From Escherichia coli O127:H6 str. E2348/69 (GTDB lineage Bacteria > Pseudomonadota > Gammaproteobacteria > Enterobacterales > Enterobacteriaceae), in the NCBI RefSeq assembly GCF_000026545.1, contig NC_011601.1: a stretch of 64,000 nucleotides of DNA; one strand, written 5' to 3'. Made by a program: the position numbers. This document shows positions 48,101 through 51,100 of this stretch, in pieces; the stretch's first letter is position 1; each line of letters starts with the position of its first letter.

Positions 48101-51100
48101 AAGCCGAAGAGCGCCGCGCACCTATTGAGCGGTTTATCGACCGTTTCAGCCGTATTTACACGCCAGCGATTATGGCCGTCGCCCTGCTGGTAACGCTGGT
48201 GCCGCCGCTGCTGTTTGCCGCCAGCTGGCAGGAGTGGATTTATAAAGGGCTGACGCTGCTGCTGATTGGTTGCCCGTGTGCTTTAGTTATCTCCACGCCC
48301 GCGGCGATTACCTCCGGGCTGGCGGCAGCAGCGCGTCGTGGGGCGTTGATTAAAGGCGGCGCGGCGCTGGAGCAGCTGGGTCGTGTTACCCAGGTGGCGT
48401 TTGATAAAACCGGTACGCTGACCGTCGGTAAACCGCGCGTTACCGCGATTCATCCGGCAACGGGTATTAGTGAATCTGAACTGCTGACACTGGCGGCGGC
48501 GGTCGAGCAAGGCGCGACGCATCCACTGGCACAGGCCATTGTGCGCGAAGCACAGGTTGCTGAACTCGCCATTCCCACCGCCCAATCACAGCGGGCGCTG
48601 GTCGGGGCTGGCATTGAAGCGCAGGTTAACGGTGAGCGCGTGTTGATATGCGCTGCCGGAAAACATCCTGCTGATGCATTTGCTGGTTTGATTAATGAAC
48701 TGGAAAGCGCCGGGCAAACGGTAGTGCTGGTAGTACGTAATGATGACGTGCTGGGTGTCATTGCGTTGCAGGATACCCTGCGCGCCGATGCTGCAACTGC
48801 TATCAGTGAACTGAACGCGCTGGGTGTCAAAGGGGTGATCCTCACCGGCGATAATCCACGCGCAGCAGCGGCAATCGCCGGGGAACTGGGGCTGGAATTT
48901 AAAGCGGGCCTCTTGCCGGAAGATAAAGTCAAAGCGGTGACCGAGCTGAATCAACATGCGCCGCTGGCGATGGTCGGTGATGGTATTAACGACGCGCCAG
49001 CGATGAAAGCTGCCGCCATCGGGATTGCAATGGGTAGCGGCACAGACGTGGCGCTGGAAACCGCCGATGCAGCATTAACCCATAACCACCTGCGCGGTCT
49101 GGTGCAAATGATTGAACTGGCACGCGCCACTCACGCCAATATCCGCCAGAACATCACTATTGCGCTGGGGCTGAAAGGCGTTTTCCTCGTCACGACGCTG
49201 TTAGGGATGACCGGACTGTGGCTGGCAGTGCTGGCAGATACCGGTGCGACGGTGCTGGTGACGGCGAATGCGTTACGGTTATTGCGCAGGAAATAAAGAG
49301 GCTATCAGTCTACGGTCCAACAATGCCGGATGCGGCGTGAACATCTTATCCGGCCTACACAGAGCATCGAACTCGTAGGCATGATAAGACGCGACAGCGT
49401 CGCATCAGGCATTGTGCACCGTATCGCCAGATGCAGCTTGAACGCCTTATCCGGCCTACAAACCGGTTTCAAGCAGCAACATTGAGCGCGATCGGTCCCC
49501 TCGCTCCTCTCTGTCTCTTATACACAAATCCCCACCCGGGGATTTGTGATGTCTGTCAGTCTGCTTTAGGGGGACTCTTTCCATCCGGTAGTTTCCTTCC
49601 TCCCCGGCAGCGATTTTTTGAACTTTTTCCTCACCCGTTGATCTTCTCTTATATTTCATTTTCTTCGGGTCTGTTATGGTACTTTCTGATTGTTATTCAT
49701 GGGCTAACGAGCAGTTTGGACATGCCCGTCTCGGTGATCCGCGTCGTACACGACGCCTTGTGTCACTGGCCTCTTCTCTCGCTCAGCATGCAGGTCTTTC
49801 TATTGTGAAATCATCCCAGTCCACTGCTCAGGTTGAAGGTGCGTACCGCCTGATACGTAACCCGTCTGTGTCCCCGCAAGCCATTGCCGAAGCCGGATTT
49901 ACCGCCACTGTAAGGGCATGTGAGGCTCATCCGCTGCTCCTCGCGCTGGAAGACACCACCACCATTAACTTCAGTCACAGTACGGCATCTGATGACCTGG
50001 GGAATACCACCACTAACCCGAAGACGCGCGGGCTGCTGGCTCACTCTGTCCTGATGTACGCCCCCGACAGCGCCCTGCCAGTCGGTCTTATCGAACAGCA
50101 GCGCTGGAGTCGTGCCACGGACACCTACGGTGTTAAGCACCAGCGAAAAGAACGTCCCTATGAAGAAAAAGAAAGTTACCGCTGGCAGCAGGCTTCGGAG
50201 CGCATGGCCGAACGGCTGGGGGAGATACAGAAACGGGTAATCACTGTCTGTGACCGGGAAGCGGATATCTGGCATTACCTGCATTATAAAGTCAGCCACG
50301 GGCAGCGCTTCGTGGTGCGTGCAGCACAGAATCGCCGGCTGGAAGAAGCACCCGGCAAGCTCTTCGAACTGCCGGAAGTCCTGGCAACCGCGGGAAGCCA
50401 CACGCTGAATGTGATGCAAAAAGGCGGGCGGGCAGCCCGCCAGGCCCGGATGTTCATCAGTTACAGCGAAGTCAGCATAAAAAATCCCGACAACAGCGGC
50501 CAGGCGCTCCCGCTCACGTATGTCTGTTGCCGGGAGCAGGCAGAGGACGGCGCCTGCTGGCATCTGCTGACGTCAGAAAAAGTGGCGAGTGCCGCCGATG
50601 CGCGACGTATCGTCAGCCATTACGAGCGACGCTGGCTGATAGAGGAATACCACAAGGCGTGGAAAAGTGGTGGTACATGTGTGGAATCGCTGCGAATGCA
50701 GACCCGGGATAACCTCGAGCGCATGGTGGTTATCAAGGCGTTTATCGCGGTGCGGGTGCTGGGCCTGCGGCAGGGCGGTATCAGTGAAGAAACACAAAAT
50801 GACAGCTGTGAGAAAATACTGACGCCGACAGAGTGGAAACTGCTGTGGGTTAAGCTGGAAGGAAAACCGCTTCCGTCACAGATGCCGACACTGAAATGGG
50901 CCTGTCTGAAACTGGCGAAACTGGGGCGATGGCATGACAGCAAACGCACCGGTCGCCCCGGTTGGGTAGTCATGTGGGATGGCTGGTTCAGACTTCAGGA
51001 TATGGTTGAGGGTTACCTGGTGATGAAGTCTCTTGATCAGGAGATCTGATCAAGAGACAGCGCTCCTCTGGGGAGAGGGTTAGGGTGAGGGGAAAAGGCG

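What the first reader, a model, noticed from the sequence alone, without database searches (positions are those of the whole stretch)
49502..51069. Intact IS50-like insertion sequence with perfect 9-bp target-site duplication between zntA and tusA
The termini match the IS50 outside end (17/19) and inside end (19/19, with GATC Dam sites). A single 457-aa Tn5-type transposase ORF runs into the right terminal repeat, as in IS50. Identical 9-bp direct repeats (CGCTCCTCT) flank the element, which indicates a relatively recent, simple insertion. It sits in the convergent 3' region between zntA and tusA, just beyond a triple-REP cluster, so it probably disrupts no coding sequence. I recall no IS at this K-12 locus. 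The transposase is clearly diverged from canonical Tn5 Tnp even though the ends are near-canonical, which is unusual.
Basis: partly seen in the sequence, partly recalled or inferred. Interest (0 to 1): 0.6.

Follow-up and report, generated by a model that had tools for sequence, protein, structure and literature searches.

The report
Known insertion sequence ISEc13, intact copy
This is an ordinary, already catalogued mobile element (ISEc13, a distant cousin of Tn5's IS50) sitting between two genes of the enteropathogenic E. coli strain E2348/69; the only fresh point is that this element picks its landing sites by a short symmetric DNA motif.

Summary
The element proper is 49511-51060 (1,550 bp), flanked by a perfect 9-bp duplication, CGCTCCTCT. 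Its left end matches the IS50 outside end at 17/19 and its right end matches the inside end at 19/19. A 457-aa Tn5-type transposase ORF stops inside the right end.

It is not new. It is 100% identical to ISEc13 copies in E. coli E2348/69 (about 30 per chromosome), and RefSeq annotates it at this exact locus. Only 3 of 5,426 complete E. coli genomes, all O127:H6, carry this insertion. The empty site, with one CGCTCCTCT, exists at 100% identity in other strains.

The "diverged transposase, canonical ends" contrast is real: 39% amino-acid identity to IS50R. It is a trait of the whole clade, though. Marine relatives at 42-49% identity keep the same ends.

One added result: across 33 distinct ISEc13 insertion sites, all 66 half-sites have C at positions -4 and -2 from the duplication. 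The target is CCYCY-N(7-11)-RGRGG, and the duplication length follows the arm spacing (mostly 8 or 9 bp). This explains why the copy landed in a GC-rich repeat (which I call Box-C-like) between convergent genes. I found no publication of this motif.

The parts
49497..49501 (.). Left target half-site CCCCT, immediately outside the duplication
   Evidence: it fits the half-site consensus C-C-Y-C-Y. C at -4 and at -2 is invariant in 66/66 half-sites.
49502..49510 (.). Left copy of the 9-bp target-site duplication, CGCTCCTCT
   Evidence: It is present once in the empty-site alleles.
49511..51060 (+). ISEc13, complete 1,550-bp copy (IS4 family, IS50 subgroup)
   Evidence: 100% identical over its full length to ISEc13 copies in E2348/69. 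RefSeq annotates an 'IS4-like element ISEc13 family transposase' at this locus.
49511..49529 (+). Left terminal repeat, CTGTCTCTTATACACAAAT (like the IS50 outside end; contains TTATACACA)
   Evidence: 17/19 to the outside end; 19/19 identical in the Alishewanella and Alteromonas relatives.
49523..49548 (+). Subterminal hairpin CACAAATCCCC-ACCC-GGGGATTTGTG (11-bp stem)
   Evidence: -22.1 kcal/mol, z = -5.5, 0 of 200 shuffles fold as well; relatives have a hairpin at the same position, with different inner stem sequences, followed by a run of 6-7 T. Any terminator role is inferred.
49676..51049 (+). Transposase gene, 457 aa (RefSeq WP_000244358.1)
   Evidence: The DDE residues are D93/D193/E323 and the YREK residues are Y316/R319/E323/K330. 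Identity to the IS50R transposase is 38.7%.
51028..51058 (+). 13-bp-stem palindrome GTCTCTTGATCAG-GAGAT-CTGATCAAGAGAC, overlapping the transposase 3' end and the right terminal repeat, with three GATC sites
   Evidence: -25.8 kcal/mol for the 60-nt context, z = -3.3. One search gives the GATC positions.
51042..51060 (-). Right terminal repeat, CTGTCTCTTGATCAGATCT on the minus strand (identical to the IS50 inside end)
   Evidence: 19/19.
51061..51069 (.). Right copy of the 9-bp target-site duplication, CGCTCCTCT
51070..51092 (+). Right target half-site GGGGA, which is the start of a GC-rich repeat I call Box-C-like (GGGGAGAGGGTTAGGGTGAGGGG)
   Evidence: one copy in the window. The same repeat flanks ISEc13 copies at other loci in other strains. 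The 'Box C' name comes from memory, not from a database match.
49325..49459 (.). Cluster of three REP elements downstream of zntA (context, not part of the IS)
   Evidence: two REPs in + orientation. (Rfam naRNA4, 65 bits, 49378-49456, minus strand). The middle, inverted REP was read.

Best explanation
The feature is a full-length, apparently functional copy of ISEc13. This is a catalogued insertion sequence of the IS4 family, IS50 subgroup. The window is from the chromosome of enteropathogenic E. coli O127:H6 strain E2348/69, or an identical clone.

SHOWN:
- It has ends like the IS50 outside end (left) and inside end (right).
- It has one transposase gene with the Tn5 domain layout and intact DDE and YREK catalytic motifs.
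- It has a perfect 9-bp target duplication.
- It has about 30 near-identical sister copies in the same genome.
- Intact empty-site alleles exist in other strains.

INFERRED by homology with Tn5/IS50:
- The transposase binds both ends through its N-terminal domain and dimerises.
- It excises the element through hairpin intermediates (cut-and-paste).
- It joins the two 3' ends to staggered positions on the target. Repair of the stagger produces the duplication.
- Dam methylation of the three GATC sites at the right end probably limits use of that end to newly replicated DNA, as in IS50.

SHOWN here for site choice: ISEc13 inserts next to a short dyad motif, 5'-CCYCY-[duplicated 7-11 bp, mostly 8 or 9]-RGRGG-3'. 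The strand-transfer positions are fixed relative to each half-site, so the length of the duplication follows the spacing of the arms. The window copy fits this: CCCCT-CGCTCCTCT-GGGGA, inside a GC-rich Box-C-like repeat. Motifs of this kind are common in terminator-like palindromes between convergent genes, which is why the copy lies in harmless DNA.

INFERRED: each protomer of the transposase dimer reads one half-site.
For: Identity:
- 100% nucleotide identity over 1,550 bp to ISEc13 copies in E2348/69; 30 places in that chromosome and 2 on plasmid pMAR2.
- The 2.8-kb stretch including both flanks is 100% identical to three O127:H6 genomes only.
- RefSeq annotates the locus as zntA - ISEc13 transposase - tusA.
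- The exact protein is named 'transposase of ISEc13', UniRef Q0H069.

Family:
- The three Tn5 Pfam domains are found.
- NCBIfam NF033590 scores 514 bits against a cut-off of 160.
- The Tn5 transposase structure matches at E = 7e-84.
- The DDE and YREK residues are conserved.

Simple insertion:
- The 9-bp duplication is perfect.
- The empty site is 100% identical over 311 bp in four genomes.

Recent activity:
- Sister copies are identical.
- Three assemblies of the same lineage hold 27, 29 and 30 chromosomal places.
- The same target has been hit independently. The agp-yccJ hairpin was hit three times (L004 with 9 bp, L048 with 8 bp, L070 in the opposite orientation). The aaeR-tldD site was hit twice, in opposite orientations (L052, L057). 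The rcnB-yehA site was hit twice (L060, L064).

Target motif:
- In the first 28 distinct sites, C at -4 and C at -2 occur in 56/56 half-sites.
- A prediction test on 5 new sites gave 10/10.
- In the window with the IS removed, 18 of 62,423 positions score at least 8/10 against CCCCT-N8-AGGGG, against 21 of 28 real sites.
Against: - Transposition activity, the cut-and-paste mechanism and Dam control are inferred from IS50, not tested.
- No sigma-70 consensus promoter for the transposase gene was found.
- The IS50 inhibitor-protein start codon (M56) is not conserved (Q in ISEc13), so regulation differs from IS50 in at least one respect.
- ISfinder itself could not be queried. The name rests on RefSeq and UniRef naming of the identical protein.
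- Six of the 33 sites (L055-L060) were picked from a search ranked partly by flank similarity to this window, so they are biased towards Box-C-like flanks. The motif is equally invariant in the other 27.
Confidence: 0.95

Rival explanations
1. The element is IS50 itself, a Tn5 remnant, or a chimera in which an unrelated IS4-family element acquired IS50 ends by recombination.
For: The right end is 19/19 identical to the IS50 inside end, and the left end is 17/19 identical to the outside end.
Against: The transposase is only 38.7% identical to IS50R, and the DNA is 45.6% identical in a global alignment, with no block of high identity next to the ends. Distant relatives in marine Gammaproteobacteria carry the same end sequences, which is vertical conservation and not a recent swap. 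No kanamycin, bleomycin or streptomycin resistance genes lie nearby.
Confidence: 0.02
2. The copy is structurally intact but no longer mobile, for example because it is silenced or carries an inactivating substitution. In that case it is a fixed relic and not an active element.
For: No consensus promoter was found. IS50-type transposases are naturally of very low activity (established knowledge).
Against: The ORF is intact with all catalytic residues. The protein is identical to that of many other copies (10 places in one genome). The insertion is restricted to one lineage. The number of places differs between assemblies of that lineage: 27, 29 and 30. Hot spots have been hit independently in different strains.
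Confidence: 0.1
3. Site choice is governed by DNA structure and not by base sequence. The element would insert into extruded hairpins or cruciforms, or into single-stranded hairpins at replication forks, such as terminators and REP-like palindromes.
For: The arms are necessarily self-complementary. Many targets are longer perfect palindromes, for example AAAACCCTCTGT-AGTA-ACAGAGGGTTTT and ATCCCCCCG-CT-CGGGGGGAT. The duplication length varies from 7 to 11 bp, which is unusual for a fixed active-site geometry on B-form DNA. Marine relatives also sit at the centre of palindromes whose arm sequences are more varied.
Against: Complementarity between the arms falls to about the chance level beyond pair 6: 5-12 of 28, against about 7 expected. 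The polarity is always C-rich on the 5' side and G-rich on the 3' side, never the reverse, although both polarities would make equally good stems. Two positions are invariant bases, not merely paired bases (66/66). In the window copy the duplication lies on one arm of the best-folding hairpin, not in its loop.
Confidence: 0.2
4. The apparent motif is a survivorship artefact. Insertions would be random, and only those in harmless intergenic palindromes would persist.
For: About half of the annotated sites lie between convergent genes.
Against: Selection cannot produce single-nucleotide register: invariant C at -4 and -2 measured from the junction in 66/66 half-sites. Insertions that interrupt genes (dgoD in L041, dgcJ in L058) obey the same motif.
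Confidence: 0.02

Closest known systems
ISEc13 (ISfinder name; IS4 family, IS50 subgroup), first deposited from the EAF plasmid pMAR7 of E2348/69 (UniRef Q0H069; the pMAR7 origin is from memory)
   Same: The transposase protein is identical. The DNA is 100% identical to other copies annotated as ISEc13 in the same strain.
   Different: Nothing: this is a copy of that element. ISfinder's reference entry itself could not be consulted.
IS50 (the IS of Tn5)
   Same: Shared features are the asymmetric outside-type and inside-type ends (17/19 and 19/19), a stop codon inside the right end, GATC sites in the right end, the three-domain transposase with DDE and YREK motifs, and a length of about 1.5 kb. 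The window copy also has a 9-bp duplication.
   Different: The transposase is 38.7% identical and the DNA 45.6% identical. About 82 extra bp with a strong hairpin follow the left end. There is no Met-56 inhibitor start. ISEc13 duplicates 8 bp more often than 9 and has a strict CCYCY/RGRGG flanking motif, whereas Tn5 has only the weak A-GNTYWRANC-T preference (Goryshin et al. 1998, PMC27961, cited from knowledge and from the reference list seen).
IS186 (IS4 family)
   Same: From my own knowledge (SaiSree, Reddy and Gowrishankar 2001, J Bacteriol), IS186 prefers a dyad of G and C runs separated by a short variable spacer, and its duplications vary in length.
   Different: The polarity is opposite: G-run then C-run in IS186, C-rich then G-rich here. 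IS186 belongs to a different IS4 subgroup with different ends. This comparison was not tested here.
IS231A (IS4 family) target GGG(N)5CCC
   Same: Both use a symmetric short GC motif flanking the duplication, read by a dimeric transposase (from knowledge: Hallet et al. 1994).
   Different: The motif, spacing and subgroup all differ. This comparison was not tested here.
IS1397, ISKpn1, IS621 and ISRm22 (elements that insert in REP/BIME palindromes)
   Same: All show preferential insertion into intergenic repeated palindromes, which is a 'safe haven' strategy (Tobes and Pareja 2006, PMC1525189).
   Different: Those elements recognise REP sequences specifically and belong to the IS3, IS110 or IS4Sa groups. 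ISEc13 landed beside, not in, the REP cluster, and it follows a generic 5-bp dyad found in several kinds of repeat and terminator.

Membership tests
ISEc13 (as an isoform or copy of the named element) | Near-identity to the reference element (ISfinder convention: over 95% nucleotide or over 98% amino-acid identity) | tested here: met
   The protein is identical to the sequence named 'transposase of ISEc13'. The DNA is 100% identical to copies that RefSeq labels ISEc13 family.
IS4 family | A single-ORF DDE transposase with the D..D..E triad and the Y(2)R(3)E(6)K motif (PMC2266710) | tested here: met
   D93, D193 and E323; Y316, R319, E323 and K330, aligned to Tn5 D97/D188/E326 and Y319/R322/E326/K333. 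NF033590 scores 514 bits against a cut-off of 160.
IS4 family | A target duplication of roughly one helical turn | tested here: met
   9 bp in the window. Across 33 sites the range is 7-11 bp, mostly 8 or 9.
IS50 subgroup | 5'-CT termini (not 5'-CA) and a Tn5-type N-terminal DNA-binding domain and C-terminal dimerisation domain | tested here: met
   Both ends start CTGTCTCTT. Pfam PF14706 has E = 3e-19 and PF02281 has E = 1e-4. The subgroup description is in PMC2266710.
IS50 proper (isoform of IS50L/R) | Near-identity to IS50 in DNA or transposase | tested here: not met
   38.7% amino-acid and 45.6% nucleotide identity to IS50R taken from plasmid NZ_CP148499.1.
IS50-type regulation | An inhibitor protein translated from an internal Met (M56) in the transposase frame | tested here: not met
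   The aligned residue is Gln. The only in-frame start-like codons nearby are GTG at codons 29, 44 and 65, with no evidence that they are used.
IS50-type regulation | Dam (GATC) sites within the inside end | tested here: met
   GATC at 51043 and 51048 inside the 19-bp end, plus 51035. The effect of methylation was not testable here.
Cut-and-paste transposition via hairpin intermediates (Tn5/Tn10 mechanism) | Biochemical demonstration of excision through a hairpin on the transposon end | not testable with these tools
   Inferred only, from conservation of the YREK motif and of W298 and W323. W125 is replaced by Leu.

The most novel reading that the evidence does not exclude
ISEc13, and in looser form its IS50-subgroup relatives in marine Gammaproteobacteria, is not a near-random inserter like Tn5. 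It selects a dyad target, CCYCY-N(7-11)-RGRGG. The two strand-transfer points are anchored to the half-sites and are not set by a fixed stagger, so the duplication length varies with the arm spacing. Because such dyads are concentrated in terminator-like palindromes and Box-C-like repeats between convergent genes, the element homes to neutral DNA. It also carries its own terminator-like hairpin directly behind the left end. That hairpin could replace the terminator it splits and shield the transposase gene from read-through. I found no description of this in the searchable literature, but ISfinder notes and subscription papers could not be checked.
Probability: 0.5. Interest if true: 0.45.

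Novelty: already known. Interest (0 to 1): 0.2.

Why it matters
As a finding it matters little. It is a catalogued IS in a reference pathogen genome, sitting in intergenic DNA with no disrupted gene. Three side points have some use.

1. ISEc13 is the dominant IS of E2348/69, with about 30 copies. It drives rearrangements; a roughly 60-kb inversion between two copies is visible in another strain. Knowing its target motif lets one predict hot spots and tell independent insertions from shared ancestry when IS sites are used as lineage markers.

2. A Tn5 relative with strict target choice and a variable stagger is a natural contrast for work on how Tn5-type transpososomes capture target DNA.

3. 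The left end is identical to the first 16 nt of the Tn5 mosaic end used in Nextera libraries. Standard adapter trimming will therefore clip genuine reads across ISEc13 left junctions. In addition, Tn5-based tools used in ISEc13-bearing strains might cross-react with resident ends. Both are inferences and were not tested.

Tried and rejected
- The scan of one genome per species returned no ISEc13 itself, only relatives at 39-53% identity. It was useless for collecting more ISEc13 sites but useful for comparing ends.
- The E2348/69 genome paper (Iguchi et al. 2009; I guessed PMC2612414) is not held. Two literature searches failed on term syntax and one on phrase length.
- The 8 papers that mention ISEc13 each do so once, in lists of mobile elements. 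'IS4 family goes genomic' and its supplements do not mention ISEc13 or a target for it.
- The promoter scan found no sigma-70 consensus in or around the element, so the transposase promoter remains unassigned.
- The strict pattern CCYCY-N8-RGRGG has no match in the window. The window site has a 9-bp spacer and a T at -5 of one half-site, which showed that only -4 and -2 are invariant.
- RNAalifold on the left-end hairpins gave a poor consensus because indels misaligned the stems. I rely on the single-sequence folds instead.
- I first thought the rule was 'loop plus 2 bp of stem on each side' of a hairpin. I dropped this after the matrix showed that arm complementarity decays to chance beyond 6 bp and that the window copy is not in a loop.
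- L053 (a 99.1% variant) and three short contigs (L078-L080) lacked one recognisable end or flank and were left out.
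Full report

Yes. The sequence and a script show CGCTCCTCT at 49502-49510 and again at 51061-51069, and nowhere else in the window on either strand.

Between the two copies lies a 1,550-bp element, 49511-51060.
- Its left terminus is CTGTCTCTTATACACAAAT. This matches the IS50 outside end at 17/19 and the Tn5 mosaic end at 17/19.
- Its right terminus, read inward, is CTGTCTCTTGATCAGATCT. 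This matches the IS50 inside end at 19/19.
- GATC occurs at 51035, 51043 and 51048.
- The only long ORF is 49676-51049, 457 aa. Its stop codon lies inside the right terminal repeat.

zntA (47098-49296, +) and tusA (51124-51369, -) converge on the element, and no gene is interrupted.

There are REP matches at 49325-49358 and 49426-49459, an inverted REP between them, and an Rfam hit to the REP-derived naRNA4 at 49378-49456.

**2. What is it?**

A megablast of the element against 5,426 complete E. coli genomes gives 100% identity over the full length to copies annotated 'IS4-like element ISEc13 family transposase'. The best matches are in strain E2348/69 (EPEC O127:H6), which has 30 places on its chromosome and 2 on plasmid pMAR2.

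A 2.8-kb query that includes both flanks is 100% identical to three genomes only, all E2348/69 or O127:H6. So the window is from that strain, and the insertion is private to that lineage. RefSeq annotates this exact locus as zntA - ISEc13 transposase (WP_000244358.1) - tusA. The identical protein is named 'transposase of ISEc13' in public sources (UniRef Q0H069).

The family assignment is firm:
- Pfam finds Tnp_DNA_bind, DDE_Tnp_1 and Dimer_Tnp_Tn5.
- NCBIfam NF033590 scores 514 bits against a cut-off of 160.
- The solved Tn5 transposase structures match at E = 7e-84 over residues 6-453.

**3. Simple, recent insertion?**

I joined the left flank, one copy of CGCTCCTCT and the right flank into a 311-bp empty-site sequence. 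Four genomes match it at 100% identity and full length, and 581 genomes cover at least 80% of it.

Several things point to an element that is active or was active very recently, although activity itself was not tested:
- Sister copies are identical.
- Three assemblies of the same lineage have 27, 29 and 30 chromosomal places.
- The same target has been hit independently in different strains (section 5).

**4. The 'diverged transposase, canonical ends' remark.**

I fetched IS50R from a plasmid and aligned it.
- The transposases are 38.7% identical overall. By region this is 52.9% in the N-terminal end-binding region (Tn5 residues 1-70), 37.8% in the catalytic core and 31.8% in the C-terminal region.
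- The DDE triad (D93/D193/E323 in ISEc13) and the YREK motif (Y316, R319, E323, K330) are kept.
- The Met-56 start of the IS50 inhibitor protein is Gln in ISEc13.
- The DNAs are 45.6% identical in a global alignment.
- ISEc13 has about 82 extra bp directly after position 16 of the left end.

It is not peculiar to this element, however. A scan of one genome per bacterial species found 29 loci encoding relatives at 39-53% identity, in Alishewanella, Alteromonas, Pseudoalteromonas and various metagenome-assembled genomes (MAGs). Their left ends are 18-19/19 identical to the ISEc13 left end, and their right ends are 16-18/19 identical to the IS50 inside end. Strong conservation of asymmetric ends, together with the best-conserved protein domain being the one that binds them, is a clade trait.

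**5. Why this site?**

Some ISEc13 copies in other strains matched 20-30 nt beyond the element, so I collected junctions from:
- ten copies in one genome;
- twenty RefSeq hits;
- two further sets, collected as a prediction test.

In the first 28 distinct sites I aligned each half-site by its junction with the duplication. All 56 half-sites have C at -4 and C at -2. Position -3 is C in 44 and T in 11, -5 is C in 40, and -1 is T in 34 and C in 18. The target is therefore 5'-CCYCY-[duplication]-RGRGG-3'. The prediction held in all 10 half-sites of 5 new sites, for a total of 66/66.

In the window with the IS removed, 18 of 62,423 positions score at least 8/10 against CCCCT-N8-AGGGG. Among the real sites, 21 of 28 do.

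The duplication is 8 bp at 19 sites, 9 bp at 11, 7 bp at 1 and 11 bp at 2. Because the invariant C's keep their register from each junction, the length of the duplication follows the spacing of the two arms.

Several hot spots were hit independently:
- The agp-yccJ hairpin was hit three times: L004 with 9 bp, L048 with 8 bp, and L070 in the opposite orientation.
- aaeR-tldD was hit twice, in opposite orientations, with the same 8 bp (L052, L057).
- rcnB-yehA was hit twice (L060, L064).
- One Box-C-like repeat between lptG and yjgR was hit at two offsets (L055, and L008/L009).

Insertions inside genes (dgoD, dgcJ) obey the same motif, so survivorship cannot explain it.

The window copy reads CCCCT-CGCTCCTCT-GGGGA. 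It lies at the edge of a GC-rich repeat, GGGGAGAGGGTTAGGGTGAGGGG (51070-51092), which also hosts ISEc13 at other loci in other strains. I call this repeat 'Box-C-like' from memory of the E. coli Box C family; that label is not a database result.

Of 18 distinct annotated sites, 9 lie between convergent genes. Six sites (L055-L060) came from a search ranked partly by flank similarity, so they are biased towards such repeats.

**6. Sequence or structure?**

Many targets are parts of longer palindromes, and the marine relatives also sit at palindrome centres, with duplications of 8-12 bp. This suggests hairpin recognition.

Four observations argue against it:
- Arm complementarity falls to about chance beyond the sixth pair: 5-12 of 28, against about 7 expected.
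- The polarity is always C-rich on the 5' side.
- Two positions are invariant bases, not merely paired bases.
- In the window's best fold of the empty site, the duplicated 9 bp lie on a stem arm, not in a loop.

I therefore favour recognition of two short half-sites by the two protomers of the transposase dimer, with a flexible or distorted spacer. I keep structure recognition as a rival at about 0.2.

**7. Other anatomy.**

An 11-bp-stem hairpin lies at 49523-49548, starting inside the left terminal repeat. It folds at -22.1 kcal/mol (z = -5.5; 0 of 200 shuffles fold as well). The relatives have a hairpin at the same place, with different inner stem sequences, followed there by a run of 6-7 T. 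That is the form of an intrinsic terminator pointing into the element.

My inference, untested, is that this hairpin blocks read-through from the gene upstream. That would fit an element that splits terminator-like sequences. In ISEc13 itself the T-run is degenerate (ATTTGTG), and the terminator scan did not flag it.

The right end forms a 13-bp-stem palindrome (51028-51058), made of the inside-type end and an inverted near-copy of it. It encodes the last residues of the transposase. Its role is unknown.

**8. Comparison with what is known, and verdict.**

The element is ISEc13, so the finding is 'already known'. It works like IS50 in outline, by homology, but it is not IS50. It differs in four ways:
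- There is no inhibitor-protein start.
- It has the extra left-end hairpin.
- Its duplications are mostly 8 bp, not 9.
- It chooses targets strictly, whereas Tn5 has only a weak consensus.

Dyad GC-run targets with variable duplications are known from memory for IS186, and GGG-N5-CCC for IS231A. Insertion into REP palindromes is documented for IS1397, ISKpn1, IS621 and ISRm22 (PMC1525189). I found no report of the ISEc13 motif in the searchable literature. However, ISfinder and most subscription papers could not be checked, so I give even odds that it is unpublished.

Interest in the original finding is low. The target rule is a modest, testable addition.

Noticed in passing
window 49523-49548; L012 1119-1147, L016, L022, L029, L033 (same relative position): A strong hairpin begins at position 13-16 of the left end in ISEc13 and in its marine relatives. 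The inner stem sequences differ between elements. In the relatives a run of 6-7 T and a conserved TTGAAC follow the hairpin, so it looks like an inward-facing intrinsic terminator followed by a possible -35 box.
   Followed up: partly
window 51028-51058: The right end is a 13-bp-stem palindrome, GTCTCTTGATCAG-GAGAT-CTGATCAAGAGAC. It consists of the inside-type end plus an inverted near-copy, carries three GATC sites, and encodes the transposase C-terminus. IS50 and the marine relatives lack this long palindrome.
   Followed up: partly
window 49511-49526: The first 16 nt of the left end (CTGTCTCTTATACACA) are identical to the Tn5 mosaic end / Nextera adapter sequence. Adapter trimmers would therefore clip genuine reads at ISEc13 left junctions. 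This is an inference and was not tested.
   Followed up: no
window 49378-49456 (- strand): Rfam naRNA4 (RF02564, a nucleoid-associated RNA derived from REP elements) scores 65 bits within the three-REP cluster downstream of zntA.
   Followed up: no
window 51070-51092; L055, L056, L059, L008, L052/L057 flanks: A GC-rich repeat, GGGGAGAGGGTTAGGGTGAGGGG (I call it 'Box-C-like' from memory), recurs as the landing pad of ISEc13 at several unrelated loci in other strains: lptG-yjgR, ppiC-ilvC, uvrB-yvcK and aaeR-tldD.
   Followed up: partly
L008 and L009 (E. coli CP148541.1, 2303817-2308190 and 2364294-2368667): Two inverted ISEc13 copies about 60 kb apart have exchanged flanks: each one's left duplication matches the other's right duplication. 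This indicates an inversion by recombination between them. The same pattern appears in L015/L023 in Alishewanella jeotgali and in L076/L077 in E. fergusonii-type contigs.
   Followed up: partly
L043 (pMAR2 of E2348/69, 15027-16576): The plasmid copy between hok and finO has no matching duplication, yet each flank on its own shows the CCYCY half-site at the expected distance. This suggests a rearrangement involving the second plasmid copy.
   Followed up: no
plasmid hits H117-H121; statistics: Many E. coli F-type plasmids carry only the last ~100 codons of the ISEc13 transposase, at 97% identity. 2,991 of 5,426 genomes have some ISEc13 DNA, but only 873 have a copy of at least 80% of full length, so remnants are far commoner than intact copies. 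Shigella plasmids (H107-H109) carry a partial relative at ~60% identity.
   Followed up: no
window 50179-50596 (- strand): Five of the six terminator-like sites found in the scanned region lie on the antisense strand inside the transposase gene (6 found in total, against 1.8 expected from shuffles). One example is GGCGGGCTGCCCGCC followed by TTTTT at 50441-50423.
   Followed up: no
L072-L080 (E. fergusonii plasmids and ENA contigs): A 1,564-bp ISEc13 variant (98% identical protein) has 14 extra bp. Its 9-bp duplication has one mismatch (GGATAAGTA versus GGATAAGCA), and it is flanked by CCTCC and AGGGG.
   Followed up: no
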